From positions 48,903-112,902 of the forward strand of contig CASFZN010000020.1 in NCBI GenBank assembly GCA_949299195.1: a stretch of DNA of 64,000 nucleotides, given 5' to 3'. Positions 1 to 58,178 of the stretch are shown one piece after another (the stretch's first letter is position 1; each line of letters starts with the position of its first letter). Under the pieces are notes generated by a model. That model was not told where the DNA came from. It saw only the letters and a program-made list of their open reading frames with translations, and did not search any database. This stretch comes from an uncultured bacterium (GTDB lineage Bacteria > Bacillota_I > Bacilli_A > RFN20 > CAG-826). Position numbers and translations under genes: made by a program.

Positions 1-2
1 CT

Positions 3-869
3 TTTAATAATGCTGGTATCGATATTTTAGGTCCTACTAGTTTAATTAATTATTCTAACGACCATTACTTACTTTTTATTACATCTTTATTAATTATTTT
101 AGGTGGTATTGGATACTTTGTTATTGTTGATGTCGTTAGAAATAAATTTAGATTTAAAAGATTATCTTTACATACTAAAGTTGCTATTTCTTATTCTTTA
201 TTTTTAATTATTTTTGGAACTTTAGTTATCTATATTACTGAATTATTTAATAGCGTTAGCGTTGTTTCAGCAATGGATGCTTATTTTTTAAGCGTTAGTG
301 CTAGAACTGCAGGTTTTACGTCAGTTGATTTATATACTGTTAGAAATGCGTCCTTAATTATTATATGTATATTAATGTTTATTGGTGCTTCTAGTGGCGG
401 ATCTGGTGGCGGTATTAAGGTTACTACATTCGCAATCTTTATTGCATACATGAGAAGCTTAATAACTGGGAAACCGTCGACATTATTTAAAAGAAATCTT
501 CGAGATGATTTAATTAAAAAAGCTATGGCTTTAACGATGCTTGGATTCTCTTTCTTCCTTTTAGGATTATTCTTAATTAGTGCTATTGAAGGAAATAGAG
601 TTTATGTTCTTGATGGAGTAAGAATTTATGAAGAAGCTGAAGGAGCTTTATCTTTTACTACCATCGACTTTGCTTTTGAAGCGATGTCAGCTTTTGGAAC
701 AGTAGGTTTAACAACTGGATTTACTCCATATTTTTATGATGCATCTAAGTTTATTTTAATTTGTTTAATGTATATTGGTAGAGTTGGTCCAATGACTATC
801 TCAATCATGTTTAAGCCAAGAAAAGAACAACTATATCGCTATGTTAGTGAAGATATAAGTGTTGGTTAA
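3..869 (+). CDS. ktrB: Ktr/Trk K+ uptake membrane subunit, 5'-truncated by the window edge
   Basis: The frame of ORF 273..869 is open back to base 3 (FNNAGIDILG..., IILGGIGY). It carries pore-loop motifs RTAGF, GASSGGSGGGIKVTT, SAFGTVGLTTG and MYIGRVGP. Confidence 0.85.
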   Translation, partial: FNNAGIDILGPTSLINYSNDHYLLFITSLLIILGGIGYFVIVDVVRNKFRFKRLSLHTKVAISYSLFLIIFGTLVIYITELFNSVSVVSAMDAYFLSVSARTAGFTSVDLYTVRNASLIIICILMFIGASSGGSGGGIKVTTFAIFIAYMRSLITGKPSTLFKRNLRDDLIKKAMALTMLGFSFFLLGLFLISAIEGNRVYVLDGVRIYEEAEGALSFTTIDFAFEAMSAFGTVGLTTGFTPYFYDASKFILICLMYIGRVGPMTISIMFKPRKEQLYRYVSEDISVG

Positions 870-957
870 TTTATTAACTAAAAAATAAATAATTTTTAAT
901 AAAATTTATATATAAATTAAGGATAAATATTTAAAAGATTCAAGGAGTGTAATTTAT

Positions 958-1617
958 ATGAGTAAGATTAAAAGTTCTATTGGAATTATTGGGCTAGGAA
1001 AATTTGGTTCCTATATTGCCCAAGAATTAGGTAAAAATGGGAAAAGTATCGTCTGTATTGATAAAGATGAAAATAAGGTAAAAAAGATTCTTCCTTATAG
1101 CGATGCCGCATATGTAAGTGAAGATTTATCAATCAAAACCTTAGAAGATACAGGTTTTAAAGAATGTGATTATATTTTAATTTGTATCTCTGAACACTTA
1201 GATACTGCGATTTTTGCTACCTTAAATGCCTTAAATTTAGGAGTAGAAAAAGTTATTTCAATTGCTAATAGTGAAGAACAAGGATTAGTCTTAGAAAAAC
1301 TTGGTGCTGAAGTTATTTATCCTTATAAAGATAGTGCTGATAGACTTGTTAAAAAGATTTTGAATAATAACTTTTTAGATTATATTGCCCTTAATGATGA
1401 TGTTGAAATTATTGAAGTCAAGGTTCCTAAATCCTTAATCGGAACTAGTGTTATTGAATCTGATATTAGACAAAAATACGGCATAAATATCATTGCTATT
1501 GAAAGCGAAGACAAAATTACAACCCGTATTCATCCTAACTATAAATTTAATAAGGAAGACGCTTTAGTTGTTATTGGTGATACTGATCAATTAAAGAAAT
1601 TCCAAAATAAAGAATAA
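958..1617 (+). CDS. ktrA: Ktr/Trk K+ uptake regulatory subunit (RCK_N + RCK_C)
   Basis: Rossmann IIGLGKFG motif and C-terminal RCK_C (DIRQKYGINIIAI); AAGGAG RBS; follows ktrB. Confidence 0.85.
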   Translation: MSKIKSSIGIIGLGKFGSYIAQELGKNGKSIVCIDKDENKVKKILPYSDAAYVSEDLSIKTLEDTGFKECDYILICISEHLDTAIFATLNALNLGVEKVISIANSEEQGLVLEKLGAEVIYPYKDSADRLVKKILNNNFLDYIALNDDVEIIEVKVPKSLIGTSVIESDIRQKYGINIIAIESEDKITTRIHPNYKFNKEDALVVIGDTDQLKKFQNKE

Positions 1618-1698
1618 TACTACCCAAAATGAGATATTTTACTCTATAATATTGGTAGAAAATTAATAAATATTTAAGAAAAACGGAGTATCTTAAAA

Positions 1699-3597
1699 AT
1701 GGCTTATGGATTACTTTATGACTTTCTAAGCGGTCAAACTATTGAAGCATATAAATATTTTGGTGCTCATTTCACCCAACGGGAAGTCGAAGAGGATATG
1801 GAAGTTCCTCTTAAAAAAGACCAAACAAGGTCAAAGACAATTAAACATAAAAAGTTAGTTGATGGTGTAGTTTTTAGACTTTATGCACCAATGGCAAGCG
1901 ACGTAAGTGTAATAGGAGACTTTAATAACCGGGATCCTTTTGTTCATAAAATGAATAAGATTGATGATTCTGGTGTTTTTGAACTTTTTATTCCTAATTT
2001 ACACAATTATTCTTCTTATAAATTTCACTTTAAAAATGCACATGGAGAATATGTTGATAAAGCAGACCCATACGCATTTTTTAGTGAATATCGTCCAGGA
2101 ACATGTTCAAGATTATTTAATATTGAAGGATTTATTCGGCATGATCGTCCATATTTAAATACTAGAGACCGTAATTTTGACCGCCCAGTTTCAATTTATG
2201 AAATGCATTTAGGTTCTTGGAAAGGAAAGGTTGATGGAAGAAATCTTTCTTATGAAGAAATCGCAGATTATTTAATTCCTTATTTAAAGGATTTAGGTTT
2301 TACCCATATTGAAATCATGCCAATTGTTCAATATCCTTTTGATGGTTCATGGGGATATCAAGCAACAGGTTTCTTTAGTGTTGACTCTCGATATGGTAAT
2401 CCATTCCAACTTATGAGTTTTGTCGATAGAATGCATCAAGCTGGAATCGGAGTTATTTTAGATTTTGCTCCAGTTCATTTTGCAACTGATTCATGGGCAT
2501 TAACAATGTTTGATGGTACTCCGATGTATGAATATGGAGATTCTCATATGTATTCTCCTTGGGGTAGTAAACAATTTGACTTAGGAAAAGATCCAGTTAG
2601 AAGTTTCTTAATGTCAGCAATGAACTATTTCCTTGATTATTTCCATTTCGATGGCATTAGAGTTGATGCTGTTAGTAATATTGTTTATTGGGATGGCAAT
2701 AAGAATAATGGAGAAAATACCGGAGCTACCGAATTTATTAAAAGATTAAACGGTAAAATTCATATTGCTCATTGTAGCGTAATGATGATTGCTGAAGATT
2801 CTACCGATTTTACAATGGTTACTAAACCTACCGATTGGAATGGCTTAGGATTTGATTATAAATGGGATTTGGGATGGATGAATGACACCTTAAAATACTA
2901 TAAACTTGATCCTATTTATAAAAAATATGACCATAATAAGCTTACTTTCTCGATGGCATATTTCTATAGTGAAAATTTCATGCTTCCTTTATCTCATGAT
3001 GAAGTAGTCCATGGAAAAGGAACTATTTTAAATAAGATGTATGGAGATTATGATACTAAATTCGCATTAGTTAGAAATCTTTATACCTATCAATTTGGTC
3101 ATCCAGGTAAAAAGCTTAACTTTATGGGAAATGAACTTGCTTCTTGGGATGAATGGAATGAAAATAAATCACTTCCTTGGGATTTAAAACGTTTCCCTAA
3201 ACACGATAGTGTCTATAGACTTGTAAGAGATTTAAATCTTATCTATAGAAACGAAGAAGCAATGTATTTTGAAGAATATAATCCAGTTCATTTTAACTGG
3301 CTTATGGTTGATAATGCTAATGATAGCGTCTTTGCTTTTGAAAGAAGAGTTAAGGATTCTCATTTAGTATTTATCTATAATATGACTCCTAATTACTATG
3401 AATATTATGATATTGGTTTAACTAGAAGTGGAACTTATGAAGAAATATTTAATAGTGATAAGGATGTTTATGGCGGATCTAATGCATATAATGGACTTCC
3501 TTTAACAAGTAGTGAATGGGGACCTGAAAATAAACCTCATAAATTAACTGTTAAACTAGCTCCTTATGCAGCAATGATCTTTAAATTTAAAGAATAA
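1699..3597 (+). CDS. glgB: 1,4-alpha-glucan branching enzyme (GH13_9); contains 3 in-frame CGG codons
   Basis: IYEMHLGSW, SWGYQATGFF, DGIRVDAV (nucleophile), IAEDST (acid/base) and LSHDEVVHGK motifs. Confidence 0.97.
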   Translation: MAYGLLYDFLSGQTIEAYKYFGAHFTQREVEEDMEVPLKKDQTRSKTIKHKKLVDGVVFRLYAPMASDVSVIGDFNNRDPFVHKMNKIDDSGVFELFIPNLHNYSSYKFHFKNAHGEYVDKADPYAFFSEYRPGTCSRLFNIEGFIRHDRPYLNTRDRNFDRPVSIYEMHLGSWKGKVDGRNLSYEEIADYLIPYLKDLGFTHIEIMPIVQYPFDGSWGYQATGFFSVDSRYGNPFQLMSFVDRMHQAGIGVILDFAPVHFATDSWALTMFDGTPMYEYGDSHMYSPWGSKQFDLGKDPVRSFLMSAMNYFLDYFHFDGIRVDAVSNIVYWDGNKNNGENTGATEFIKRLNGKIHIAHCSVMMIAEDSTDFTMVTKPTDWNGLGFDYKWDLGWMNDTLKYYKLDPIYKKYDHNKLTFSMAYFYSENFMLPLSHDEVVHGKGTILNKMYGDYDTKFALVRNLYTYQFGHPGKKLNFMGNELASWDEWNENKSLPWDLKRFPKHDSVYRLVRDLNLIYRNEEAMYFEEYNPVHFNWLMVDNANDSVFAFERRVKDSHLVFIYNMTPNYYEYYDIGLTRSGTYEEIFNSDKDVYGGSNAYNGLPLTSSEWGPENKPHKLTVKLAPYAAMIFKFKE

Positions 3598-3657
3598 GAA
3601 TAAAATAGAATAAGACTATTAATTTTTATATAATTATTAAGTTGTTTTAAATAAATT

Positions 3658-3692
3658 AAATTCATTTCTCTTTTATAACGAGAAATGAATTT
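3658..3692 (+). terminator. 13-bp hairpin between glgB and glgP (terminator or mRNA-stabilising stem)
   Basis: AAATTCATTTCTC (3658-3670) pairs with GAGAAATGAATTT (3680-3692); 9-nt loop. Confidence 0.5.
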
Positions 3693-3734
3693 ATTATTTA
3701 TATAAAAGAAAAGAAAAAAGAAGAAGGAGAAAAT

Positions 3735-6146
3735 ATGTACTTTTCAAATAAGGAAGAATTCAAAAAAGAGTACACTAATAGAATTATTGCAAAATATGGT
3801 AAAAGTCCAGAAGATGCACATATTAGTGAACAATTCGATATTTTAGGAGAACTCGTTAGAGATTATAGCGGTGTTAACTGGAGAAATACTCGTCAAAGTG
3901 TTACTCAACATGGTGGTAAACAACTTGTTTATTTCTCAATGGAATTTTTAATTGGCAGACTCTTAACTTCCAATATGATGAATTTAGGTATCTTTGATGT
4001 TGTTAAAGAAGGACTTAAAGAATTAGGAATTGATATTGGAAGACTTGAAGATGAAGAAGCTGATGCTGGATTAGGAAATGGTGGCTTAGGTAGACTTGCT
4101 GCATGTTTTTTAGATTCTATCGCATCTTTAGGTTATCCAGGAAACGGTAACTGTATCCGTTATGAATATGGTTTCTTTAAACAAAAGATTATTAATGGGG
4201 CTCAAGTAGAACTTCCAGATCAATGGTTATCTAATGGATTCGTTTGGGAGGTTAGAAAACCTAAACATTCCTGCGAAGTTAACTTTTATGGAAACGCAGA
4301 AACTTATTTAAAATCTGATGGAAGCTATGCAATTAGAACTTCAAATGCTATTAAAGTTAAAGCTTGTCCATATGATGTTTATGTTGCTGGATATAAAAAT
4401 GGTATTGCTAATACTTTAAGATTATGGAGTGCACAACCAAGTGAAGAAAATATTCCAACCAACCAATCTTTTGAAGAATATTTACAAACTTTAAGTGAAT
4501 TATGTCATGGTCTTTATCCAGATGATTCAACTGAACATGGAAAATTATTAAGATTAAGACAACAATATTTCTTCGTTTCAGCCGGATTACAATCAGTTAT
4601 TAGAACTCATAAAAGAGTTTGTGGAACCTTAGATAATTTACCTGAAAAATACGTTTTCCAACTTAACGATACCCATCCAATCTTAGCAATCCCAGAATTA
4701 ATGAGACTTTTAATGGATGAACATGGTTATGGATGGGATGATGCTTATGCAATTGTTGAAAAGTGTTTTGCTTATACCAACCACACAATCATGGCAGAAG
4801 CCTTAGAAAAATGGCCAATTAGATACGTTCAACAATTATGCCCAAGATGTTATATGATTATTGAAGAAATCAATAGAAGATTCCTTCTTTGGTGTAATAA
4901 AAATAACATCAGTGACGGCGAAAAATTCAATATGTCTATCATTAAAGATGGTATGATTCATATGACAAATTTGGCTTGTTACGTTGTTTTCTCAATTAAT
5001 GGCGTTGCAGCATTACATACTGAAATCTTAAAGAAAGATACGTTAAAAGAATTCTATAAATATTTCCCAAATAAATTTAATAATAAAACTAATGGTGTTA
5101 CCCATAGAAGATGGTTAATGTATGCAAACCCAGAATTATCTGATTTTATTACCAAAAGAATCGGAGAAGATTGGAAAAAACATCCAGAACAATTAGAAAA
5201 ATTATTAGAATTTAAAGACGATAATGAATCTTTAGTTGAATTAAGACAAATTAAATATAATAACAAGGTTAAGCTTGCTAAATATATTAAAGAACATAAC
5301 GATGTTGAAGTTGATCCTAATTCAATCTTTGATATTCAAATTAAGAGATTACACGCTTATAAAAGGCAATTATTAAACGTCTTTAAAATCATTCATTATT
5401 ACTATCAAATTAAAACTAATCCAGAGTTTAAGATGGTTCCTCATACCTATATCTTTGGTGCAAAAGCTGCCCCTTCATATGCTTTTGCTAAAGAAATCAT
5501 TTTACTTATTACTCAAGTAGCAAAAGTAGTTAATAATGATCCAGTAGTTTCTAAATATATGAAAGTTGTATTTATCGAAAACTATGGCGTTTCTTTAGCA
5601 GAATTAATGATTCCTGCAGCAGATATTTCAGAACAAATTTCAACCGCTGGTAAAGAAGCTAGTGGTACTGGTAATATGAAATTTATGATGAATGGTGCTT
5701 TGACTTTAGGTACTTTAGATGGTGCTAATGTTGAAATTAATGAAAGAGTTGGAGATGAAAATTCATTTATCTTTGGATTAAAGGTTAAAGATATTGAAGA
5801 TATTAAGGCTAAAGGATTATATAATCCATGGGATTTGTATAATAATAATCAATATATTAGAGTCGTATTAGATTCATTATTTAAAGGTCCATGGTGTGAA
5901 AATATTCCTAATAGATTTAGAGGAATTTTCGATGAAATCATGAATCATAATGATGAATATTTCACTCTCTTAGACTTTGATGCTTATATTAAAGAAAATG
6001 TTAGAGTTGATGAATATTATTTAAAGAGAGAAGAATGGTTCAAATCTACTTTAATTAATATCGCATTAAGTGGATATTTCTCAAGTGATAGAACAATCGA
6101 AGACTATAATAGAGATATCTGGCACTTAAAGAAAGTAGAACTTTAA
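3735..6146 (+). CDS. glgP: Glycogen/maltodextrin phosphorylase (GT35)
   Basis: LGNGGLGRLAACFLDS, QLNDTHP, KTNGVTHRRW, IKRLHAYKRQ and EASGTGNMKFMMNG (PLP lysine) motifs. Confidence 0.97.
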   Translation: MYFSNKEEFKKEYTNRIIAKYGKSPEDAHISEQFDILGELVRDYSGVNWRNTRQSVTQHGGKQLVYFSMEFLIGRLLTSNMMNLGIFDVVKEGLKELGIDIGRLEDEEADAGLGNGGLGRLAACFLDSIASLGYPGNGNCIRYEYGFFKQKIINGAQVELPDQWLSNGFVWEVRKPKHSCEVNFYGNAETYLKSDGSYAIRTSNAIKVKACPYDVYVAGYKNGIANTLRLWSAQPSEENIPTNQSFEEYLQTLSELCHGLYPDDSTEHGKLLRLRQQYFFVSAGLQSVIRTHKRVCGTLDNLPEKYVFQLNDTHPILAIPELMRLLMDEHGYGWDDAYAIVEKCFAYTNHTIMAEALEKWPIRYVQQLCPRCYMIIEEINRRFLLWCNKNNISDGEKFNMSIIKDGMIHMTNLACYVVFSINGVAALHTEILKKDTLKEFYKYFPNKFNNKTNGVTHRRWLMYANPELSDFITKRIGEDWKKHPEQLEKLLEFKDDNESLVELRQIKYNNKVKLAKYIKEHNDVEVDPNSIFDIQIKRLHAYKRQLLNVFKIIHYYYQIKTNPEFKMVPHTYIFGAKAAPSYAFAKEIILLITQVAKVVNNDPVVSKYMKVVFIENYGVSLAELMIPAADISEQISTAGKEASGTGNMKFMMNGALTLGTLDGANVEINERVGDENSFIFGLKVKDIEDIKAKGLYNPWDLYNNNQYIRVVLDSLFKGPWCENIPNRFRGIFDEIMNHNDEYFTLLDFDAYIKENVRVDEYYLKREEWFKSTLINIALSGYFSSDRTIEDYNRDIWHLKKVEL

Positions 6147-6169
6147 TCAAAAACTTATTCAAATTTTAT

Positions 6170-10875: not shown

Positions 10876-10924
10876 ATAGAAATATCTAATAAATTACGAT
10901 ATTATATTAGTTGTTTAAAAATGG

Positions 10925-11135
10925 CGATGAAGAGAAGTAGTAATTAACTTTAATTCTTTTACCAGTGAAGAGTGATGGTGAGAAACTCAAAAAGAATGGT
11001 TAATGAATTCGTCTCAGAGCTTCTTTGATGAAGACGTGTACTTTTACGTAAATAAAGTAAATTAAGTAAGAATTAGGATGGTACCGTGTAGAAGATAATT
11101 TCTTTGCACTCCTATACACTAATTCTTTTTTTATT
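10925..11135 (+). ncRNA. T-box riboswitch, Phe specifier (UUC)
   Basis: Stem I with AG bulge and GGTGAGAA apical loop; specifier TTC at 11008-11010; T-box AATTAGGATGGTACCGTG at 11071-11088; upstream of pheS. Confidence 0.85.
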
Positions 11136-20501: not shown

Positions 20502-21824
20502 CTAATTCTCCGTTTTTTTAATTGTTTCTGCTTTAAATAAATAAAGTGGCTCTTTAACTTTAATAGATTTATTTTCAATAACATAAACCTTATTAGTTAA
20601 ATAATCAATATAGGCTCCATCTTCTAATTCTTCGGATTTAATAATTGAAGAAGTAAGAGAAGAAGAAAGGTTAAAGAGTCCATACATTTTACTACCATCT
20701 TTAAAGTTATTTCTAATAACTATGTTATTACCTTTACTAGGTAAAATAGAAGAAGTTAAAACATCTAAATTAAATTCTTCTTTTTTAAAGTTAATTACTT
20801 TTTTAACATAATTAAACCATTCTGTATCTATAGTATCATCCATTAAATCTTTAGTAAAAAGTGAAAGATTATGATCAGCCTTAGTTTCAAGTCCATTATA
20901 TATAAACATTGGACCTTTCATAAAGACTGGAAGTGCTAAAAGAGTATGTAATAATCTTTCATTTTTAGTATATTCAATTAAACGAGGTTGATCGTGATTT
21001 TCTAATCCTCTAATCCTTAGATTAGAGGATGGATTATAAGCTTCTTCGTATTCTAGTAATACCTTATAAATATCTAAATATGAAGAATCTTTCTTAATTA
21101 AATAATCTTTTAAATATTCAAAGTTATTATATGTATATAATAAATCAAATCCTAATTCATATAATTCAGCATCACTTAAAGCATTAAATCCTAAACTACG
21201 AGTATAGGTAGCAAAATTAGGGTGGATTGATTCGGCTAATAAAATAGTATCAGGATGATATTTATCTAACATTTCTTTTAACTTTATATAAAAAGAAGAA
21301 GGTATTAAACTAGCAACATCAAAACGATATCCATCAACTCCTAAATCGCTATAATATTTAATAACATCTACTAAATAATCTATTAATTCCGGATTAGAAT
21401 AATCTAAATCATAGACATCACTCCAATCTCCGACCTTATTAGCCATCTTTCCTTCATTATTTTTATACATCCATTCAGGATGATTTTTAACAATTTCACT
21501 ATCTCTAGATGTATGATTAAAAACGATATCAATCATTAATTTCATATTTTTAGAATGAGTTTCATTAATTAATTCTTTAAAGTCTTCTAAAGTACCTAAT
21601 TCACTATTAATTTCATAATAATTCTTAATTGAATATGGACATCCTAAATCTCCTTTTTTTCCATAACTTCCAATAGTGTTAATAGGTAATAGATAAACAA
21701 TATCTACTTTTAATTCATCTTTTAGATAATCTAATTTTTTAGTGACTGCTTTAAAAGTTCCTTCTTTAGAGAAGTTTCTCACATAAACTTGATAAATAAT
21801 CTTAGTTTTTAATTCGTTCTTCAT
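20502..21824 (-). CDS. Cytoplasmic GH13 alpha-amylase-family enzyme
   Basis: IYQVYVRNF, DIVFNHTS, DGYRFDVA (nucleophile), LLAES (acid/base) and LENHDQPR motifs; no signal peptide. Confidence 0.9.
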   Translation of the reverse strand: MKNELKTKIIYQVYVRNFSKEGTFKAVTKKLDYLKDELKVDIVYLLPINTIGSYGKKGDLGCPYSIKNYYEINSELGTLEDFKELINETHSKNMKLMIDIVFNHTSRDSEIVKNHPEWMYKNNEGKMANKVGDWSDVYDLDYSNPELIDYLVDVIKYYSDLGVDGYRFDVASLIPSSFYIKLKEMLDKYHPDTILLAESIHPNFATYTRSLGFNALSDAELYELGFDLLYTYNNFEYLKDYLIKKDSSYLDIYKVLLEYEEAYNPSSNLRIRGLENHDQPRLIEYTKNERLLHTLLALPVFMKGPMFIYNGLETKADHNLSLFTKDLMDDTIDTEWFNYVKKVINFKKEEFNLDVLTSSILPSKGNNIVIRNNFKDGSKMYGLFNLSSSLTSSIIKSEELEDGAYIDYLTNKVYVIENKSIKVKEPLYLFKAETIKKTEN

Positions 21825-21876
21825 ATGTAATAATTTTATACAAATTTATCAAATTTTCAATTATAATATTTATCTA

Positions 21877-23400
21877 ATGAAAGAGAGTGGAATCTTATTA
21901 CATATCACCTCATTACCTAGTAAATATGGAATTGGAACACTTGGCAAAGAGTGTATAAAATTCATCGATTATATCGCTGAATGTGGTTTTTCTTATTGGG
22001 AAATATTACCGCTTGAAGATACTGGTTTTCCAAATTCTCCATTTTTAATTAAAAGTCCTTTTGGACATAATTCTTTATTAATTGATTTTGAAGAGTTAAT
22101 TGAAGAAGGATTACTTTCTAGTCGAGATTTAACTGGAATTGATTTTGGGTCTAATCCTCGTCAGGTAGATTTTTCAAAATTATTTAATACTAAAGAAGCA
22201 ATATTAAAAAAAGCCTATAAACGATTTGATAAAGAGAATATTGAATTTATTAATTTTAAACAAAACAATAAACATCTATATAATTATTGTTTATATAAAA
22301 CTATTAAAGATCATAACTATCATAAAGCGTGGTTTGATTTTGCTCTTGAAGATAGGTATTATTCTAGCGAAGTCAAAGAACACTATGAAAGACATTATAG
22401 TGATGAAATAGATTTCCATCAGTTTTTAGAATTTATCTTTAAAAAGCAGTGGGATAAGATACATAATTACGCTAAAAGTAAAAACATTGAAATAGTAGGA
22501 GATTTACCTCACTTTTTAGGATATGATAGCGATGCTGTTTATTTTGAACCAGAACTCTTTATGGTTGATAAAAGAAATTTAATTACTTTTGTTGCGGGTT
22601 TCCCACCAGATAACTTTAAACCTCAAGGTCAAAAATGGGGATATCCATTATATGATTGGGATTATATGAAACTTAATAACTATAAATGGTGGAAAGAAAG
22701 AATAGGAGCCTCTTTTCAATATTACGATAGATTAAAACTTAATCATTTCCGTGGTTTTTTAGAAGTTTATGCGATTCCTTTTAGATCTAAATCTGCTAAA
22801 AGAGGAAAATATATTCAAGGGCCAGGATTAGAATTTATTGAAGAAATTAAAACAACAAGTGAAAACTTAATCGCAAGTGATATTGGAACCAGTAGTGAAA
22901 AGGTAAATTCTTTTGTTAAAAAAACCAATCTTCCTTCAATGAAGATTTTAATTCCTACTTTATTTGATAATGAAAAGGTTAAATGTATTCCTAGCGAAAT
23001 CGAAACAAATTGTTACTATTATTTAGGAAATCATAATAATACTCCAATAAAAACTAAACTCGAAGGATTAAATGAAGAAGAGAAAGAGAAGTTATTAATC
23101 TTTATAAAGGAAGAATGTCTAAAGTTAAATGTTCCTTATTTTGAAGATGATGTAATAACTCTTTATGATGTTTCTAAAAAGATTACTGAATTAATGTTTG
23201 CTTCTAATGCGGAACATTTAACTCTAACATTAATTGATCTTTTATATAAAGGAGATGAAGCTAGAATGAATCATCCAGGTACTATTGAAGGTAACTGGGA
23301 AGCTAGGTTTTTAGGGTTTGAATTTAGCGATTCTCTTAAAAATAGACTCGTTGATTTAAATACTAAATATAATCGTTTTAATAAAAGAAACATTAAGTAG
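21877..23400 (+). CDS. 4-alpha-glucanotransferase (GH77) paralogue, predicted catalytically inactive
   Basis: Full-length MalQ fold (ESGILLHITSLP, AGFPPDNF..GQKWGYPLYDW), but the catalytic motifs read LNHFRG, IASDIG and GNHNN. Confidence 0.85.
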   Translation: MKESGILLHITSLPSKYGIGTLGKECIKFIDYIAECGFSYWEILPLEDTGFPNSPFLIKSPFGHNSLLIDFEELIEEGLLSSRDLTGIDFGSNPRQVDFSKLFNTKEAILKKAYKRFDKENIEFINFKQNNKHLYNYCLYKTIKDHNYHKAWFDFALEDRYYSSEVKEHYERHYSDEIDFHQFLEFIFKKQWDKIHNYAKSKNIEIVGDLPHFLGYDSDAVYFEPELFMVDKRNLITFVAGFPPDNFKPQGQKWGYPLYDWDYMKLNNYKWWKERIGASFQYYDRLKLNHFRGFLEVYAIPFRSKSAKRGKYIQGPGLEFIEEIKTTSENLIASDIGTSSEKVNSFVKKTNLPSMKILIPTLFDNEKVKCIPSEIETNCYYYLGNHNNTPIKTKLEGLNEEEKEKLLIFIKEECLKLNVPYFEDDVITLYDVSKKITELMFASNAEHLTLTLIDLLYKGDEARMNHPGTIEGNWEARFLGFEFSDSLKNRLVDLNTKYNRFNKRNIK

Positions 23401-23478
23401 AAACATAAAAATTTTTAACTAATTCCAAATTAGGTAAAAATTTACTTAATTTAACCAAAATTGTTGTCAATAAAAAAT

Positions 23479-23502
23479 AAAGCCATAATTATGGCTTTTT
23501 TT
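23479..23502 (+). terminator. Terminator after the malQ-like gene
   Basis: AAAGCCAT-AATT-ATGGCTTT followed by a T run. Confidence 0.65.
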
Positions 23503-23645
23503 AAAACATTATGAAAAGTTAAAATAATACGACAACCACCGACATTATTTTAATTTGATGTAAAAATTGACCCAAATTTTTTAAAATTTTTTCAAATTTT
23601 TGCAGATTTCATTAATTTTAATGTATCTTCCTTACTTTTTTGTGT

Positions 23646-23687
23646 TTGACACACCAACTTTTCAATTTTATAATGAAAGCGCTTACA
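23646..23687 (+). promoter_or_regulatory. Consensus sigma-A promoter of malQ with an overlapping cre/LacI-family operator
   Basis: TTGACA (23646-23651), 17 nt, TATAAT (23669-23674); TGAAAGCGCTTACA (23674-23687) fits the cre consensus TGWNANCGNTNWCA. Confidence 0.85.
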
Positions 23688-23722
23688 TAAATTAAGCATT
23701 TATTTTATTTAGTGAGAAATTT

Positions 23723-25249
23723 ATGAAAATTAGAGAAAGTGGAATTTTATTACATATCTCATCATTACCAAGTAAATATGGTATTGGTACCTTAGGAAAA
23801 GAAGCTTATAAATTTGTTGATTTTTTAAGTCTTTGTAGATGTAGTGTATGGCAAATCTTACCTCTTAACGTAACAAGTTATGGAGATAGTCCATATCAAT
23901 CTCCATCTAATAATGGCTTAAACTATTACTTTATAGATTTAGAAACCTTAATTGAAAAGAAGTTACTTACTTTAGAAGAAGTAGAATCCATTAATTGGGG
24001 AGATGATGAAGGAAGAGTTGATTACTCCCTTATATATAAAAATAGATTAGGAATCTTAAAGAAAGCCTTTGAAAGATTCAATCGTAACGATGAATCTTTC
24101 AAAAAGTTTATTAAAGATTACCCAATCTATAAAGACTTCGCAGTATTTATGGTATTAAAAGAAATTAATAATTTAACTGCATGGTATACCTGGGAAGAAA
24201 AATACCGTAAATACTCTTTAGAGTTAGAAGAAAAAATTATTAAAGAACATAAAGACTTAGTCTTATTCTATATCTGGACTCAATATGAGTTTAGAAGTGA
24301 ATACGATAAACTTAAAAAGTATGCAAACGATAAAAACATTAAGATTATGGGAGATCTCCCAATCTATGTTGCATTTGATTCACTTGAAGTACGGAAATAT
24401 CCTTCACTTTTTGAACTCGATGAAGAACATTTCCCTAAAAGAGTAGCTGGCTGTCCTCCTGATTGTTTTTCAAAAGATGGTCAATTATGGGGTAATCCTT
24501 TATATAACTGGGCTTATCATAAAGCTACTAACTATAAATGGTGGAATGAAAGAATAAATTATGCCTTATCCTTATTTGATTATTTAAGAATTGATCACTT
24601 TAGAGGATTTAGTGGCTATTATGCAATTCCTTTTAAAGATAAAACTGCTAAAAACGGTACTTGGGTAAAGGGTCCTGGATTTGATTTATTTAAAGATAAG
24701 TTAGATTATCCAATCGTTGCTGAAGATTTAGGAATGATTGATGATGACTTTATTAAATTCTTTAACTCTTGTGGTTATCCAGGAATGAAGATTGTAACTC
24801 AAGCATTCGATGATCCTGATAAAGAAAATATCTGGAGACCATCAAATTATACTTATAATTTCTTCTCATATAGCGGAACTCATGACTCTCAAACTACAAA
24901 ACAATTTATTATAGAAGTATGGCAAGATCCTAAAAGAAAGAAATTATTCTTAACTATTTTAGAAGAAGAATGTAAACACTTTAGAATTCCATTTGTTAAA
25001 ACTTTAAGTGAAGATGATTTAACTTTAAAGATTTGTGAACTTAACTTTGCAAGTGGTTCTAAATGTGCAGTTGTTCCACTTCAAGATTTATTAAAGATTG
25101 GAGCAGAAGGAAGAATGAATTTCCCTTCAACATTATCAACATCTAACTGGTCATGGAGAGTTAAACCAAATTTAATTAAAAAAGAAAAAGAAACTCTTCA
25201 AGACTTACTTACTAGATGGAATGATAATTATGAAAGAGGAGATTATTAA
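23723..25249 (+). CDS. malQ: 4-alpha-glucanotransferase (amylomaltase, GH77); contains one in-frame CGG
   Basis: Intact catalytic triad LRIDHFRG, VAEDLG and GTHDS; GDSPYQSPS and GQLWGNPLY motifs. Confidence 0.95.
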   Translation: MKIRESGILLHISSLPSKYGIGTLGKEAYKFVDFLSLCRCSVWQILPLNVTSYGDSPYQSPSNNGLNYYFIDLETLIEKKLLTLEEVESINWGDDEGRVDYSLIYKNRLGILKKAFERFNRNDESFKKFIKDYPIYKDFAVFMVLKEINNLTAWYTWEEKYRKYSLELEEKIIKEHKDLVLFYIWTQYEFRSEYDKLKKYANDKNIKIMGDLPIYVAFDSLEVRKYPSLFELDEEHFPKRVAGCPPDCFSKDGQLWGNPLYNWAYHKATNYKWWNERINYALSLFDYLRIDHFRGFSGYYAIPFKDKTAKNGTWVKGPGFDLFKDKLDYPIVAEDLGMIDDDFIKFFNSCGYPGMKIVTQAFDDPDKENIWRPSNYTYNFFSYSGTHDSQTTKQFIIEVWQDPKRKKLFLTILEEECKHFRIPFVKTLSEDDLTLKICELNFASGSKCAVVPLQDLLKIGAEGRMNFPSTLSTSNWSWRVKPNLIKKEKETLQDLLTRWNDNYERGDY

Positions 25250-25428
25250 TTAATTTCTTAATTCCTATTTATTAATAGGTATTAAGAAATTGATAATAGA
25301 AAATTTCTTTTCTTTCTTATATATAATATAAAGATAGAAAAGAAATACATATTTAATTACTTTAGGTTATTAAACTCATTTTGAGTTAATAATATAAAAT
25401 TTTCTTAAAATAATTTAGGAGGAATAAA

Positions 25429-26877
25429 ATGAAAAAGAGGAAATTTTTAGCTTTATTAGCTTGCTGCTCGATAGCAGCTGGTACAATGACAGCCTTAAGT
25501 TCATGTAATGGAACTTTTGAAGGGATTTTGTTATGGGGACCAGCAGAACATGCTGAAGTATATACTCAACTTTGGCAACAATTTATCACTGAAAACCCAG
25601 AATATGCTGATATTGAATTCCAATACGGTAACAATGGTGATGCAGGCGCATATGACAATTTAGCTGTTGACCCACAATCTGGTGCTTCAATCTATACTTT
25701 TGCTAATGACCAATTAGCAAATATTAGAAGAATCGGTGCTATCGCTCCAGTTGCTGGTGAAAATGAAGAATGGATTTTAGCTAACCATTCACAATTCTCT
25801 TGTGATGCAGGTAAGATCGATAATACTTATTATGCATATCCAGTTTCTCAAGATAATGGTTTCGTTTTCTGTTATTCAAAAGATGCATTTAGAGATACAG
25901 CAGTTTGGGATGAAACAACTGACTCTATTAGAGCAGATTACACATTTAGAGACTTATTTGCAGCTTTAGATGAAAGAGGAACCCAAGCTGGTCATGAAAA
26001 ATGGGGTAACGGATTAGTTCTTTGGCCATGTGGTTCAGCATGGTATGAAGCTGGTGTCTTCTTTGCAACTGGCGGAGATTATAGTGTTGAATACGACAAA
26101 AGTGGCAACCAAGTTTCAGCAGAATGTTCATTCGGTTATACAGAAAGCGGCGGACAAAAAGATTACACAATCGGTTTAGAAGCTGCTCGTTGTATGGTTA
26201 ACTCTTATACAAATGAAGATGGTACAGTTTCAAGCCACTTTATGTATACTGATGATAATACTCCACCATATAATGATATCGTTTCTCAATATATTACAAA
26301 TGAAACACAACCTTTAGCTGGCATTATTTCTTGGAACAATGGTGATGCATTCTCCAATTGGGGTGATGATTATGATGCAACTATTTTACCAATGTTAGAA
26401 AGTGACACTGTCCAATTAGGTGGAACTGGTAAACAATATAGAATGAAGACATTCGGTGGTTGTAAATTAATGGGTGTTAATCCATATTCTGCATTCGCTA
26501 GAAAGAGTCCAGAAAATTTACAAATGTTACACGATTTAGCTAAATTCATGACTGGTTATGATGCTTCTATGGCTAGATTCGAATCTTCTGGATTAGCTCC
26601 ATCTAATTTAGAAGCTGCTCAAAATGAAGATGTTTTAGCTAGCCCATTCGTTGAAGCATTAAATGCTCAAATGGCTTTAACAGATGAAAATGGAAATGAA
26701 ATTGGCTACCGTGTCCAAGATTCAACTCCAACTAACTTCTGGGATCCAATTGCTGCTTTCGGATTAGGTTTATTCACAAATACTAATGATGGAACAGATA
26801 ATGGTTATGGAAGTGAAGATTCCATTCTTCCAACATTAGAAAACTTACAATCTGATATTGAATCAGCTACAGTATAA
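25429..26877 (+). CDS. Maltodextrin ABC transporter solute-binding lipoprotein
   Basis: AGGAGG RBS; lipobox LSSC; SBP family-1 features (IYTFANDQL, YAYPVSQDNG, FGGCKLMGVN); acidic; context of sugar permeases. Confidence 0.85.
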   Translation: MKKRKFLALLACCSIAAGTMTALSSCNGTFEGILLWGPAEHAEVYTQLWQQFITENPEYADIEFQYGNNGDAGAYDNLAVDPQSGASIYTFANDQLANIRRIGAIAPVAGENEEWILANHSQFSCDAGKIDNTYYAYPVSQDNGFVFCYSKDAFRDTAVWDETTDSIRADYTFRDLFAALDERGTQAGHEKWGNGLVLWPCGSAWYEAGVFFATGGDYSVEYDKSGNQVSAECSFGYTESGGQKDYTIGLEAARCMVNSYTNEDGTVSSHFMYTDDNTPPYNDIVSQYITNETQPLAGIISWNNGDAFSNWGDDYDATILPMLESDTVQLGGTGKQYRMKTFGGCKLMGVNPYSAFARKSPENLQMLHDLAKFMTGYDASMARFESSGLAPSNLEAAQNEDVLASPFVEALNAQMALTDENGNEIGYRVQDSTPTNFWDPIAAFGLGLFTNTNDGTDNGYGSEDSILPTLENLQSDIESATV

Positions 26878-26888
26878 AAATTAACTTT

Positions 26889-26923
26889 AAATCAAGGGGT
26901 TTGTTTTAATAACCCCTTGATTT
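26889..26923 (+). terminator. Intra-operon hairpin after the SBP gene (stabiliser or partial terminator)
   Basis: Perfect 13-bp stem AAATCAAGGGGTT / AACCCCTTGATTT with a weak U tail. Confidence 0.6.
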
Positions 26924-26944
26924 GCTTTATAGTGAGGATTTTTT

Positions 26945-28444
26945 ATGACAGATTTAAACTATTTGGGTTTATCTAAGCCTAGAAAATTAATGTATAGAAC
27001 AAAAAGAGGATTTAGAAATTCCGGAAAAGCTATAAAGAAATTTTTTAGATCGATTCCAACAAAAATTTCTGAAATATTTCATAAATTTATTAGTTCTTTC
27101 TCAGTCGTCGGTGATGCGATGTTATACGGTGATTGGAAAACAAAATTATCATTTATTATTTTCGGTTTCGGAAATATATCTCGCGGGCAACTTTTAAGAG
27201 GCTTCTTGTTCCTTGTTTATGAAATAGTTTTTATTTTATACATGGTTTTCTTCGGTGGAGGATACCTTGCTAAATTTGGCACTTTAGGAACGGTTACTAC
27301 AATCACTGACGAAAACGGTTTCGTTATTCCTGGTGATGATTCTTTCAATATTCTTCTTTATAGTGTTATGACCATTTTAGTCATTGGCTGTACATTATAT
27401 GTTTGGTTCCAATCAATAAAACAAGCTTATAGTGTTCAAGAAATGACTGAAATTAATAAAAAATTATCAAAAGGAAGAGATGATCTTATTAATTTGGGAA
27501 ATAGATATTATCATACTACCCTTTTAGCATTACCTATGTTTGGCCTAGTATGTTTTACTATTATTCCATTAATTTTCATGATCTTCGTCGCTTTTACAAA
27601 CTACAATACTCAACATTTACCACCTGAAAGATTATTCACATGGGTTGGGTTTGAAAACTTTGGAACTGTTTTAAATGGTGGCGGTATTGGTGGTGGCAAT
27701 TCTGCTAGATTTACTTACACCTTCTGGGCTTTATTAGGATGGACCTTACTTTGGGCAGTTCTCGCTACATTTACCAACTTTATTATTGGTATGGTAATTG
27801 CAGTTATCATTAATAAAAAAGGATTAAAATTAAAGAAATTCTGGAGAACAATCTTAGTTATCACTATCGCTGTTCCTCAATTCGTCTCTCTTTTATTAAT
27901 GAACAAAATGTTACAAGATAATGGTATTTACAATCAATTATTAATGGCAATGGGTTTAGAACCAATAGGCTTTTTAACCGATCCATTAATTGCAAAAATA
28001 ACAGTAGTTATTGTCAACCTTTGGATTGGTGTTCCATATACTGTTTTAAGTTCAACTGGTATTTTAATGAATATTCCTGATGATTTATATGAAGCAGCAA
28101 AAATCGATGGTGCTAATCCATATAGAATGTTCACATCTATTACTCTCCCTTATATGTTATTCGTTATGACTCCATCACTTATTACAACATTTGTTGGAAA
28201 TATTAATAACTTTAACATTATTTACTTATTAACAGGTGGTGGACCAAAACTTGATCCTAATATGATGTCAAGCGCTGGGCAAACTGACTTATTAATCACT
28301 TGGTTATATAATTTGACAGTTACTGAACAATCATATGATATGGCTTCTGTTATCGGTATTTTAATCTTTATTATTTGTGCTGTTTTCTCTCTTATTTTCT
28401 ATTCAAGAAGTAACAGCTTGAAAAATGAGGAGGACTTCCAATAA
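26945..28444 (+). CDS. Maltodextrin ABC permease, MalF/MalC-like
   Basis: EAA loop LYEAAKIDGANP; AFTNY, NLWIGVPY and NINNFNIIYLLTGGGP motifs. Confidence 0.9.
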   Translation: MTDLNYLGLSKPRKLMYRTKRGFRNSGKAIKKFFRSIPTKISEIFHKFISSFSVVGDAMLYGDWKTKLSFIIFGFGNISRGQLLRGFLFLVYEIVFILYMVFFGGGYLAKFGTLGTVTTITDENGFVIPGDDSFNILLYSVMTILVIGCTLYVWFQSIKQAYSVQEMTEINKKLSKGRDDLINLGNRYYHTTLLALPMFGLVCFTIIPLIFMIFVAFTNYNTQHLPPERLFTWVGFENFGTVLNGGGIGGGNSARFTYTFWALLGWTLLWAVLATFTNFIIGMVIAVIINKKGLKLKKFWRTILVITIAVPQFVSLLLMNKMLQDNGIYNQLLMAMGLEPIGFLTDPLIAKITVVIVNLWIGVPYTVLSSTGILMNIPDDLYEAAKIDGANPYRMFTSITLPYMLFVMTPSLITTFVGNINNFNIIYLLTGGGPKLDPNMMSSAGQTDLLITWLYNLTVTEQSYDMASVIGILIFIICAVFSLIFYSRSNSLKNEEDFQ

Positions 28445-29316: not shown

Positions 29317-29330
29317 TATAGGAGAAATAT

Positions 29331-31862: not shown

Positions 31863-31869
31863 GATTATT

Positions 31870-32583: not shown

Positions 32584-32621
32584 CCACTATTATAATTGGT
32601 AAAATAGTGGTTTTATTATTT

Positions 32622-33083: not shown

Positions 33084-33134
33084 GCAAATATTTTATAATA
33101 AAGCTAATTTAATTTGAATAGGAGTTTAATAAAT

Positions 33135-35283: not shown

Positions 35284-35289
35284 TTATTC

Positions 35290-53751: not shown

Positions 53752-53778
53752 AAATTAATATTTTCTTAATAAATACTA

Positions 53779-56680: not shown

Positions 56681-57229
56681 ATGTATTCTTATTTAATTGG
56701 AAAAGTTTCTTCTATTAGAGAAGGAAGTATTGATTTTGAAGTTAATAACATTGGATATTTTTTATTTGTCTCAACTAGAGATAAATATGTTTTAAACGAA
56801 GAATATCGTGTTTATATATATGATGTAATCAAAGATGATCTTTTTAAGATGTATGGATTTTTATCCCTTGAAGATCGAATTATTTTTGAAAAATTATTAG
56901 AAGTTAGTGGAATCGGCCCTAAAAGAGCATTAACTATTATTTCTCAAGCAACTATAAATGAATTGGTTAGTTTAATAAAACTTAAAAACGTTAAATTATT
57001 ATCTAAAATAAATGGCGTTGGTCGCTATGCCGAAACTATTATTTACCATTTATCTAATAAATTAGATTTTTTAGAACCAAGTCTATTTAAATATCAAAAC
57101 GTCTTTTTAGCACTTAAGGATTTAGGATATGAAGTTAATAAGATTAATGAAGCTTTATTATCGCTTCCTAGTGGCTTAAGCGATGATATTGCCTTAAAAG
57201 AAGCACTTCGAGGTATCAATAATGTATAG
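56681..57229 (+). CDS. ruvA: Holliday junction helicase subunit RuvA
   Basis: MYGF...FEKLLEVSGIGPK HhH motif and ALKDLGY; precedes ruvB. Confidence 0.9.
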   Translation: MYSYLIGKVSSIREGSIDFEVNNIGYFLFVSTRDKYVLNEEYRVYIYDVIKDDLFKMYGFLSLEDRIIFEKLLEVSGIGPKRALTIISQATINELVSLIKLKNVKLLSKINGVGRYAETIIYHLSNKLDFLEPSLFKYQNVFLALKDLGYEVNKINEALLSLPSGLSDDIALKEALRGINNV

Positions 57230-58178
57230 AAGTGAAAATATTTTAAGGCCAACTAAACTTGATTCTTTCTTTGGTCAAGATGAAATTGTTAAAAGATTAA
57301 AAGTTTATATTTATAGCGCAAGAGTTAGAGATTCAATTTTAGATCATATTCTTTTTTATGGTCCTCCTGGCTTAGGAAAAACCACTTTAGCTCAAATTAT
57401 TGCTAATGAAATGGAAACTAATCTTATTTCTATTAGTGCTCCAAGTTTAAATAAACCACTTGAACTAATCTCTATTTTAAGTCAATTAAATGATGGAGAT
57501 ATCTTATTTATTGACGAGATTCATCGTCTTAAAAAAGAGATTGGTGAAATCTTATATAGTGCCATGGAAGATTTTGTCGTTTATGTTCCTTATAAAAGTG
57601 AAGAAAACACTAAGGCAATAACTTTAAATGTATCGCCATTTACTCTTATAGGAGCAACCACTAATGGAGGCAATTTGTCTAACGCTTTAAGAGACCGTTT
57701 CCCAGTAATTTTTAAGTTTAATTATTATTCATTAAACGATTTAGTTTTAATTATTAAAGAATGTAGTAAAATCTTAGATTTAAATTTCGAAGAAAAGTGC
57801 TTTTATGAAATTGCTAAAAGAAGTAGGTTAACCCCTAGAGTTTCAAATAATTTAATAAAAAGAATTTATGATTATATGATTTATAAGGGTTTAAAAGATA
57901 TAAAATATCAAGATTTAATCGAATGTTTTAACTTTTTAAAAATAAACGAATTCGGACTTAATGAAGATGATATTTCTATCATTAAACTCATGTATGAAAA
58001 ATTTTTAAATGTAAGCGTATCTTTAGAACGGATTGCATCTTATTTAAATGAAGACGTTAATAACATTAAAAATATTAATGAACCATTTTTAGTAAATAGT
58101 GGAATTATCGAAAGAACCAAAAGAGGAAGAATTTTAACCAAAAAAGGAATTGAAATTTATAAAAAGATAAAGAAATAA
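57222..58178 (+). CDS. ruvB: Holliday junction helicase subunit RuvB; one in-frame CGG at 58029
   Basis: LRP, GPPGLGKTT, IDEIHR, GATT, LRDRF and ERTKRGR motifs. Confidence 0.95.
   Translation: MYRSENILRPTKLDSFFGQDEIVKRLKVYIYSARVRDSILDHILFYGPPGLGKTTLAQIIANEMETNLISISAPSLNKPLELISILSQLNDGDILFIDEIHRLKKEIGEILYSAMEDFVVYVPYKSEENTKAITLNVSPFTLIGATTNGGNLSNALRDRFPVIFKFNYYSLNDLVLIIKECSKILDLNFEEKCFYEIAKRSRLTPRVSNNLIKRIYDYMIYKGLKDIKYQDLIECFNFLKINEFGLNEDDISIIKLMYEKFLNVSVSLERIASYLNEDVNNIKNINEPFLVNSGIIERTKRGRILTKKGIEIYKKIKK

What the first reader, a model, noticed from the sequence alone, without database searches (positions are those of the whole stretch)
1780..2139. Non-standard genetic code: CGG appears to encode tryptophan (GlgB evidence)
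Seen in sequence: a manual scan of all main genes (roughly 19,000 codons, an estimate; I may have missed one) found only 5 in-frame CGG codons, at 1780, 1930, 2137 (glgB), 24392 (malQ) and 58029 (ruvB). Codon 78 of GlgB (1930-1932) reads VIGDFNN[CGG]D, where branching enzymes have G(D/Q)FNxWD. Codon 147 (2137-2139) reads EGFI[CGG]HD, where Bacillus-type GlgB has EGYSWQD. The codon at 1780 lies in a variable insertion and the ruvB codon at a usually-Thr position, so both are neutral. None of the five sits on a conserved Arg. Controls: AGG and CGA occupy invariant Arg sites (GlgP YKRQ, RuvB LRP and RSR, GlgB SRYG, RluD HRID), and TGG is still the main Trp codon. Established knowledge: CGG-to-Trp reassignments were reported by the Codetta screen (Shulgina and Eddy 2021) in Anaerococcus and in a clade of uncultivated Bacilli. 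Inference: this genome uses such a code, as a member of that clade or as an independent case, and table-11 translation miscalls these residues as Arg.
Basis: partly seen in the sequence, partly recalled or inferred. Interest (0 to 1): 0.92.

Follow-up and report, generated by a model that had tools for sequence, protein, structure and literature searches.

The report
CGG read as tryptophan (Onthovivens code)
This gut bacterium belongs to the uncultivated genus Onthovivens, already reported to read the arginine codon CGG as tryptophan, and all five CGG codons in the window behave as tryptophan codons, so standard translation mislabels them as arginine.

Summary
The 46 ORFs of at least 100 aa (18,940 codons) contain exactly five in-frame CGG codons, at 1780, 1930, 2137, 24392 and 58029.

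- All five are TGG in contigs of the same species (96.7-98.2% nucleotide identity, two independent samples). None of 167 other Arg codons is (Fisher p = 8.5e-10).
- Three sit on Trp or aromatic columns: GlgB 78 is W in 116/120 homologues, GlgB 147 in 120/120, MalQ 224 is W56/Y57.
- Across 240 GlgB and MalQ relatives, "R" is the commonest replacement at conserved-W columns. W never replaces conserved R.
- A 42-44% GC relative has 38 alignable CGG codons, and 33 align to window Trp.
- A relative with CGG on conserved Arg sites shows the method can also return "Arg".

The closest named proteins are Candidatus Onthovivens (GTDB UBA4855, order RFN20). This is the Bacilli clade where Shulgina and Eddy (2021) predicted CGG→Trp, so the phenomenon is already known.

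The decoding tRNA(CCG) was not shown. The window has no tRNA gene and my collection scans did not recover the Onthovivens tRNA.

The CGG-rich higher-GC relative may be new.

The parts
1699..3597 (+). glgB (1,4-alpha-glucan branching enzyme, 632 aa), which carries three of the five CGG codons
   Evidence: It matches NCBIfam GlgB equivalogs (NF008967, 704.8 bits against a cut-off of 577). It aligns to solved GlgB structures. Against the sister strain it has 19 synonymous, 5 ordinary non-synonymous and 3 CGG/TGG differences, so it is under purifying selection.
1780..1782 (+). CGG, glgB codon 28, in a variable column
   Evidence: It is TGG in the conspecific contig L001. The column is K74/R32/Q5/W2 and others in 120 homologues.
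1930..1932 (+). CGG, glgB codon 78, in the CBM48 motif GDFNNWD
   Evidence: The column is W in 116/120 homologues; the other 4 read 'R'. For the one of these checked at DNA level (L174), the codon is CGG. It is TGG in L001. The solved Cyanothece GlgB structure 5gqw has VIGDFNNWD here.
2137..2139 (+). CGG, glgB codon 147, in the motif EGFIWHD
   Evidence: The column is W in 120/120 homologues. It is TGG in L001.
23723..25249 (+). malQ (4-alpha-glucanotransferase, 508 aa), second of two tandem paralogues
   Evidence: It matches NCBIfam NF011080 at 499 bits against a cut-off of 477.
24392..24394 (+). CGG, malQ codon 224, in an aromatic column
   Evidence: The column is W56/Y57/R3/L3/F1 in 120 homologues. 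It is TGG in the conspecific contig L002. It is CGG again in the higher-GC relative L007.
57222..58178 (+). ruvB (Holliday junction helicase, 318 aa)
   Evidence: It matches NCBIfam NF000868 at 364 bits against a cut-off of 282.
58029..58031 (+). CGG, ruvB codon 270, in a variable column
   Evidence: The column is T54/S31/A30/V4/W1. The single W is the 98%-identical sister P0241, where the codon is TGG in L003.

Best explanation
The window comes from a low-GC (27.5%) gut bacterium of the uncultivated genus Candidatus Onthovivens (GTDB UBA4855, family CAG-826, order RFN20, class Bacilli). In this lineage CGG has been captured as a second, rare tryptophan codon.

Shown here:
- CGG occurs only where Trp is expected.
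- It interchanges freely with TGG between strains of one species, by a single T/C transition that is synonymous under this code.
- It never sits on a conserved Arg column, whereas AGA, CGT, CGA and AGG do.

Inferred from the published description of the clade:
- AT mutation pressure drove CGG to near zero.
- tRNA-Arg(UCG) was lost, so CGA, CGU and CGC are read by tRNA-Arg(ICG).
- CGG was left to a single dedicated tRNA(CCG). This tRNA lacks the Arg identity base A20, has the Trp discriminator G73, and is charged by TrpRS.

Consequence: standard table-11 translation writes Arg at these sites, in this window and in public annotations of the genus.
For: Strain comparison:
- In 4,952 codons compared with three conspecific contigs from two sequencing runs (96.7-98.2% nucleotide identity), the CGG/TGG pair occurs 5 times and TGG/TGG 49 times. 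None of 167 other Arg codons pairs with TGG (p = 8.5e-10).

Family columns:
- GlgB 78 is W in 116/120 homologues, GlgB 147 in 120/120, and MalQ 224 is W56/Y57.
- PDB GlgB has VIGDFNNWD at the codon-78 site.

Clade-wide signature:
- At conserved-W columns the commonest replacement is 'R': GlgB 27 of 54, MalQ 30 of 46.
- At conserved-R columns W appears 0 times.

DNA-level checks in other species:
- Every 'R' at a conserved-W column that was checked is CGG. These are L174 (NCBI Ca. Onthovivens MAG GCA_034087725.1, same glgB codon 78), L183 and L184.

Higher-GC relative (L004/L007):
- Of 38 CGG codons aligned to window orthologues, 33 align to W, 3 to F or Y, 1 to the window's own CGG and 1 to R.
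- The other Arg codons align mainly to R and K, with R the most frequent for all but CGA (2 of 18).
- In IleRS, 8 of 8 CGG codons fall on motif tryptophans.

Negative control:
- A related species (L164-L173) has CGG on Lon GV[R]ELER and on a RuvB R/K column. The approach can therefore return 'Arg'.

Fit to the published clade:
- The window has 2.6 CGG per 10,000 codons, GC 27.5% and AGA-dominated Arg usage.
- The published clade has 0.86-2.5 CGG per 10,000, GC 0.27-0.30, and tRNA(ACG)+, tRNA(UCG)-, tRNA(CCG)+.

Taxonomy and literature.
Against: - No tRNA gene lies in the window or in about 283 kb of related loci, apart from three unrelated tRNAs in L184.
- My pattern scans did not retrieve an Onthovivens tRNA(CCG). 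The decoding agent rests on the literature, not on this genome.
- Sequence alone cannot exclude ambiguous decoding (Trp plus some Arg).
- Not every Onthovivens-like species is reassigned, so genus membership alone proves nothing.
- The sister strains show no CGG in the compared stretches, a 5:0 asymmetry. Three of the five CGG codons are the first three Trp codons of one gene. Both facts are unexplained.
- Placement rests on named best hits and a single-gene neighbour-joining tree, not on a GTDB placement.
Confidence: 0.92

Rival explanations
1. CGG is decoded ambiguously or inefficiently. It might receive a mixture of Trp and Arg, or be a near-unassigned codon that stalls ribosomes, so the five sites would be slightly deleterious or regulatory rather than cleanly Trp.
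For: - CGG is very rare, at 2.6 per 10,000 codons.
- One published Onthovivens species lacks tRNA(CCG) and has almost no CGG.
- The sister strains have none in 4,952 codons.
- Three CGG codons cluster at the 5' end of glgB.
- Shulgina and Eddy state that ambiguity cannot be excluded computationally.
Against: - CGG sits on invariant Trp columns of an enzyme that is under purifying selection.
- A relative uses CGG for about 36% of its Trp codons, including catalytic-core motifs of IleRS. This is hard to reconcile with substantial mis-incorporation.
Confidence: 0.05
2. CGG still means Arg, and the five sites are real Trp-to-Arg substitutions from relaxed selection or decaying genes.
For: Table 11 gives intact long ORFs. 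Two of the five columns are variable.
Against: - Five of five CGG codons pair with TGG and 0 of 167 other Arg codons do.
- The W columns are invariant in 116-120 of 120 homologues.
- The same 'R only at W columns, never W at R columns' pattern recurs in dozens of independent assemblies.
- glgB has a low non-synonymous to synonymous ratio.
Confidence: 0.01
3. The CGG codons are sequencing or assembly errors (T read as C), or the mRNA is edited from C to U, so that the message carries UGG.
For: All five differ from the sister strains by the same single T/C change. Reads could not be inspected.
Against: - Errors would not pick only first positions of Trp codons.
- CGG at Trp sites is seen in assemblies from NCBI, ENA, JGI and Logan, made by different projects.
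- No C-to-U mRNA editing system is known in bacteria of this kind (my own knowledge).
- A dedicated tRNA(CCG) is reported in the clade.
Confidence: 0.02

Closest known systems
CGG→Trp code of the uncultivated RFN20 Bacilli clade (GTDB UBA4855, now Candidatus Onthovivens; Shulgina and Eddy 2021, eLife 10:e71402)
   Same: - Same codon and same new meaning.
- Same genome style: GC 27.5%, AGA-dominated Arg usage, CGG below 6 per 10,000 codons, TGG still the main Trp codon, CGA still Arg, TGA still a stop.
- The closest named homologues are Ca. Onthovivens.
   Different: Nothing in kind. The tRNA(CCG) and the loss of tRNA(UCG) could not be checked for this genome. The window adds strain-level evidence: CGG and TGG interchange within one species.
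Anaerococcus CGG→Trp (Clostridia; same paper)
   Same: Same codon, same new meaning, low GC and very rare CGG.
   Different: It is an unrelated lineage. The window's homologues are RFN20 Bacilli, not Peptoniphilaceae. Supporting conserved-column examples were lacking for Anaerococcus but are abundant here.
Absconditabacteria (SR1) code: UGA=Gly, CGA and CGG=Trp
   Same: CGG is read as Trp through a tRNA(CCG) with A1:U72, G73 and no A20. I recovered such tRNAs from metagenomes.
   Different: Those contigs need TGA as a sense codon. The window has intact ORFs under table 11, and its CGA sits on Arg columns.
Unassigned CGG of Mycoplasma capricolum (Oba et al. 1991, as cited)
   Same: An AT-rich Bacillota-derived lineage in which CGG has nearly vanished. 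It is the presumed intermediate stage.
   Different: Here CGG is used, at functionally constrained Trp positions.

Membership tests
Onthovivens (UBA4855, RFN20) CGG→Trp genetic code | CGG codons fall on Trp positions of conserved proteins and not on Arg positions | tested here: met
   All 5 CGG codons pair with TGG in conspecific strains. Two sit on columns that are at least 96% W and one on a W/Y column. None sits on an R-conserved column.
Onthovivens (UBA4855, RFN20) CGG→Trp genetic code | Very low GC, AGA-dominated Arg usage, CGG below 6 per 10,000 codons, TGG still dominant | tested here: met
   GC is 27.5%. AGA is 463 of 613 Arg-box codons. CGG is 2.6 per 10,000. TGG 141 against CGG 5.
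Onthovivens (UBA4855, RFN20) CGG→Trp genetic code | A tRNA(CCG) with Trp identity (G73, no A20; A/G1:U72 as support) | not testable with these tools
   There is no tRNA in the window or in the related loci. The metagenome scan found only Absconditabacteria tRNAs. The tRNA is reported present in the published clade.
Onthovivens (UBA4855, RFN20) CGG→Trp genetic code | tRNA(UCG) absent, so that CGA (Arg) and CGG can be read separately | not testable with these tools
   This needs the whole genome. Indirectly, window CGA lies on an Arg column and never on a W column.
Onthovivens (UBA4855, RFN20) CGG→Trp genetic code | Phylogenetic placement inside the reassigned part of the genus | tested here: met
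   The closest named GlgB proteins are Ca. Onthovivens sp. (84% and 82% identity). In a GlgB neighbour-joining tree the window nests among lineages that carry CGG at W columns. UBA4855 equals Onthovivens through accession GCA_002451465.1. Caveat: this is a single gene, not a GTDB placement.
Absconditabacteria code (UGA=Gly, CGA/CGG=Trp) | TGA used as a sense codon; CGA also Trp | tested here: not met
   Long intact ORFs are obtained under table 11, and treating TGA as sense adds little. CGA lies on an Arg column.
Unassigned-CGG state (Mycoplasma capricolum type; Onthovivens sp002438785) | CGG essentially absent from genes and no tRNA able to read it | tested here: not met
   Five in-frame CGG codons are present, three of them on constrained Trp or aromatic columns of genes under purifying selection. 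The tRNA part is not testable.

The most novel reading that the evidence does not exclude
The reassignment may not be frozen at the rare-codon stage described in 2021.

Within the window's species, CGG and TGG interchange as neutral synonymous alleles. An Onthovivens-like lineage at 42-44% GC (JGI samples 3300043822, 3300043933, 3300044556; loci L004-L007) uses CGG for about 36% of its Trp codons, 45 CGG against 81 TGG.

This would mean the codon rebounds once GC rises, giving a bacterial sense-codon capture seen at both ends of its trajectory within one genus-level group. I found no report of such a CGG-rich Onthovivens lineage in the papers searched.
Probability: 0.45. Interest if true: 0.6.

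Novelty: already known. Interest (0 to 1): 0.35.

Why it matters
Sense-codon reassignments in bacteria are very rare; Shulgina and Eddy (2021) reported five, all affecting arginine codons, as the first in bacteria. This window is a clean, independently checkable example of one of them.

Practically, table-11 annotation of this genome and of public Onthovivens MAGs puts Arg where the cell most likely puts Trp. One example is NCBI protein MDY2728140.1. This affects protein databases, structure prediction and any expression of these genes in a standard host.

Scientifically, two pieces go beyond the original column-based prediction and give a better handle on how codon capture proceeds. These are the strain-level CGG/TGG interchange and the CGG-rich higher-GC relative.

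Tried and rejected
- **Locating the window's own contig.** An exact look-up of its end proteins found nothing on record.
- **First tRNA(CCG) scan.** The 15 loci below 40% GC that I folded all carry Arg-type tRNA(CCG) with A20; the titles of the rest name mostly Alphaproteobacteria. Two low-GC 'Bacilli' hits (L031, L101) are also Arg-type, and L101 is not a close relative (IleRS fragment only 27% identical).
- **Second tRNA(CCG) scan.** A stricter Trp-like pattern (no A20, G73) gave 0 hits in viral contigs. In metagenomes it gave 36 hits. All of the low-GC hits large enough to test for ORFs (13 loci) need TGA as a sense codon, which marks them as Absconditabacteria; the shorter ones carry the same tRNA.
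- **Third tRNA(CCG) scan.** A tRNA-Trp-derived pattern in viral contigs hit only high-GC phage tRNA arrays.
- **Supplements.** The supplement text held for the NAR 2026 paper contains no Onthovivens tRNA(CCG) sequence.
- **Synteny route.** Loci carrying RFN20-type tRNA-Arg(CCG) (L016, L119) share no genes with the window.
- **Recombination tract.** I considered an imported tract to explain the CGG cluster at the 5' end of glgB. No donor was found, because the sister strain is the closest relative in both parts of the gene.
- **Code 4 or 25.** Rejected, because TGA is not needed as a sense codon.
- **Not run.** Structure prediction and the representative-protein search would not bear on the question.

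Full report
**1. Observation**

The window has 27.5% GC. It carries 46 ORFs of at least 100 aa, totalling 18,940 codons.

- 1780, 1930 and 2137 are glgB codons 28, 78 and 147.
- 24392 is malQ codon 224.
- 58029 is ruvB codon 270.

No further in-frame CGG occurs in credible small or partial ORFs. Gene identities are firm: GlgB, MalQ and RuvB all exceed NCBIfam curated cut-offs.

Arg is encoded by AGA 463, CGT 75, CGA 26, AGG 24, CGC 20 and CGG 5. TGG occurs 141 times. Within genes the trinucleotide CGG occurs 5 times in frame, against 21 and 104 times in the other two frames, so the codon is specifically avoided.

**2. What the five codons align to**

In 120 GlgB homologues of 75-99% identity:
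- Column 78 is W in 116. The other 4 read R.
- Column 147 is W in all 120.
- Column 28 is variable.

A solved GlgB structure (5gqw) has VIGDFNNWD where the window has VIGDFNN[CGG]D.

MalQ column 224 is W56/Y57/R3/L3/F1. RuvB column 270 is T54/S31/A30/V4/W1.

The window's other Arg codons (CGA, CGT, AGA, AGG) occupy columns that are at least 80% Arg in these three families. CGG occupies none.

**3. The strongest test: strains of the same species**

Three contigs from two independent sequencing runs (Logan ERR11534255 and SRR26926557) match window 1-6169, 22066-25416 and 53572-64000. Nucleotide identity is 96.7-98.2%.

Over 4,952 aligned codons, all five CGG codons are TGG in the other strain. 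A further 49 TGG codons are shared. None of the 167 other Arg codons pairs with TGG (Fisher p = 8.5e-10).

Both glgB 28 and ruvB 270 are Trp in the sister strain.

In glgB the remaining differences are 19 synonymous and 5 non-synonymous. The gene is therefore under purifying selection and is not decaying.

**4. The same signature across the clade**

At columns where W is conserved, the commonest replacement among relatives is 'R'. It accounts for 27 of 54 replacements in GlgB and 30 of 46 in MalQ. At columns where R is conserved, W never appears.

Wherever I fetched the DNA, an 'R' at a conserved-W column is CGG:
- NCBI MAG GCA_034087725.1, labelled Candidatus Onthovivens sp., has CGG at the very same glgB codon 78.
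- Two further species have CGG at GlgB W288, W331, W389 and at GlgP W480.

A positive extreme and a negative control frame the result.
- Positive extreme: contigs L004 and L007 (42-44% GC, syntenic with the window, 34-76% protein identity) carry 45 CGG against 81 TGG. Of the 38 CGG codons alignable to window orthologues, 33 align to W, 3 to F or Y, 1 to the window's own CGG and 1 to R. Their other Arg codons align mainly to R and K, though for CGA only 2 of 18 align to R. In IleRS, 8 of 8 fall on motif tryptophans such as DVWFDSGSS.
- Negative control: a related 31%-GC species (L164-L173; its GlgB is 81% identical to the window's) has two CGG codons. Both sit on Arg positions, Lon GV[R]ELER and a RuvB R/K column.

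The method can therefore return 'Arg'. It also shows that not every relative is reassigned, which agrees with the published table.

**5. Who this is, and what is known**

The closest named proteins are 'Candidatus Onthovivens sp.' MAGs. Others are labelled Mollicutes or Bacilli bacterium.

[quoted passage not shown] Their source data identify the clade as genus UBA4855, with these properties:
- GC 0.27-0.30.
- CGG at 0.86-2.5 per 10,000 codons.
- tRNA(ACG) present, tRNA(UCG) absent, tRNA(CCG) present.

Accession GCA_002451465.1 is 'UBA4855 sp002451465' in that table. It is 'Onthovivens sp002451465; RFN20; CAG-826' in a 2026 NAR supplement. Two 2026 papers name Onthovivens as a CGG→Trp genus.

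The window's 2.6 CGG per 10,000 codons, its GC and its Arg codon profile fit. A GlgB tree nests the window among lineages that carry CGG at W columns. The window is therefore a member of the known clade, not an independent case.

**6. Mechanism**

Shown here: CGG is used as a Trp codon, synonymous with TGG. CGA, CGT, CGC, AGA and AGG remain Arg. TGA is not a sense codon.

Inferred from the literature:
- AT pressure nearly eliminated CGG.
- tRNA(UCG) was lost, so CGA is read by tRNA(ICG).
- CGG is read by a single tRNA(CCG) that lacks A20, has G73 and is charged with Trp.

I could not show the tRNA.
- The window and about 283 kb of related loci hold no tRNA(CCG).
- The genome-collection scan was saturated by Arg-type tRNAs of other phyla.
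- A stricter Trp-like pattern recovered tRNA(CCG) genes with A1:U72, G73 and no A20, but only on TGA-recoded Absconditabacteria contigs.

Ambiguous decoding, mRNA editing and read errors cannot be excluded formally. The clade-wide pattern and the CGG-rich relative argue against them.

**7. Unexplained details**

- In glgB the first three of 16 Trp codons are CGG and the other 13 are TGG. The chance of exactly that arrangement is 1 in 560.
- Sixteen of the 27 nucleotide differences from the sister strain lie in the first 206 codons.
- No recombination donor was found.
- The sister strains have no CGG at all in the compared stretches.

**8. Verdict**

The phenomenon is real, rare in biology and already published for this genus, so novelty is low.

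What this analysis adds is strain-level evidence of CGG/TGG synonymy. It also gives a lead on a higher-GC Onthovivens-like lineage in which CGG has become a major Trp codon. That lineage lies outside the window and deserves its own follow-up.

Noticed in passing
L004 1-21905 and L007 1-11515 (also L005, L006); JGI samples 3300043822, 3300043933, 3300044556: An Onthovivens-like lineage with 42-44% GC uses CGG for about 36% of its Trp codons (45 CGG against 81 TGG). Of 38 alignable CGG codons, 33 match window Trp. Its GlgB is sister to a named Ca. Onthovivens GlgB in the tree. It looks like a rebound of the captured codon after GC rose. I found no report of it in the papers searched.
   Followed up: partly
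L164-L173 (e.g. L164 1240-3570 codon 545; 10001-10966 codon 283): A related 31%-GC species keeps CGG on Arg positions (Lon GV[R]ELER and a RuvB R/K column). Its GlgB is 81% and its RuvB 56% identical to the window's. The reassignment therefore does not cover all close relatives.
   Followed up: partly
window 1780-2139 (glgB codons 28, 78, 147): The three CGG codons are exactly the first three of the 16 Trp codons of glgB. Sixteen of the 27 differences from the sister strain lie in the first 206 codons. No recombination donor was identified. Codon 78 is also CGG in the one other species checked at DNA level (L174); three further homologues (P0096, P0098, P0101) read 'R' there at protein level.
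   Followed up: partly
L174 4952-6850 (NCBI GCA_034087725.1, protein MDY2728140.1): The public annotation of a Ca. Onthovivens GlgB carries Arg at the CGG codon that lies on the invariant Trp column. This is a table-11 mistranslation present in sequence databases.
   Followed up: yes
window 10918-11116 and 35286-35474 (+ strand): T-box leaders lie upstream of pheS and ileS. They score 75.7 and 64.5 bits, below Rfam's gathering score of 93, with E-values of 1e-14 and 1e-11. No Rfam family reaches its gathering score anywhere in the 64 kb.
   Followed up: no
window 29331-31862 (+ strand): An 843-aa MalK/UgpC-like ABC ATPase. Only residues 1-378 match the family. The roughly 460-aa C-terminal extension has no family match and is conserved in length in L004 (835 aa).
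   Followed up: no
window 1699-6146 and 20502-34859: A large glycogen and maltodextrin gene set: glgB, glgP, two tandem malQ paralogues (21877-23400 and 23723-25249), two GH13 amylase-like genes (20502-21824 and 33114-34859), and a maltose-type ABC transporter.
   Followed up: no
window 45608-46531 (+ strand): This is the only gene of 46 that ends in TGA, and a TAA follows immediately. Stop usage is TAA 36, TAG 9, TGA 1.
   Followed up: no
L128-L162 (e.g. L135 530-603, L141 6930-7003): Low-GC metagenome contigs need TGA as a sense codon, which marks them as Absconditabacteria. They carry a conserved tRNA(CCG) with A1:U72, G73 and no A20, in several loci 60 bases to about 4 kb from a tRNA-Trp(CCA). 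This is the Trp-type CGG decoder of the other known CGG→Trp code.
   Followed up: partly
L004 and L007, CGA codons: In the CGG-rich lineage, only 2 of 18 CGA codons align to window Arg (K6, N3, E3, D2, R2, Q1, H1) and none to Trp. The likeliest reading is Arg at variable surface sites, but the number is small.
   Followed up: no
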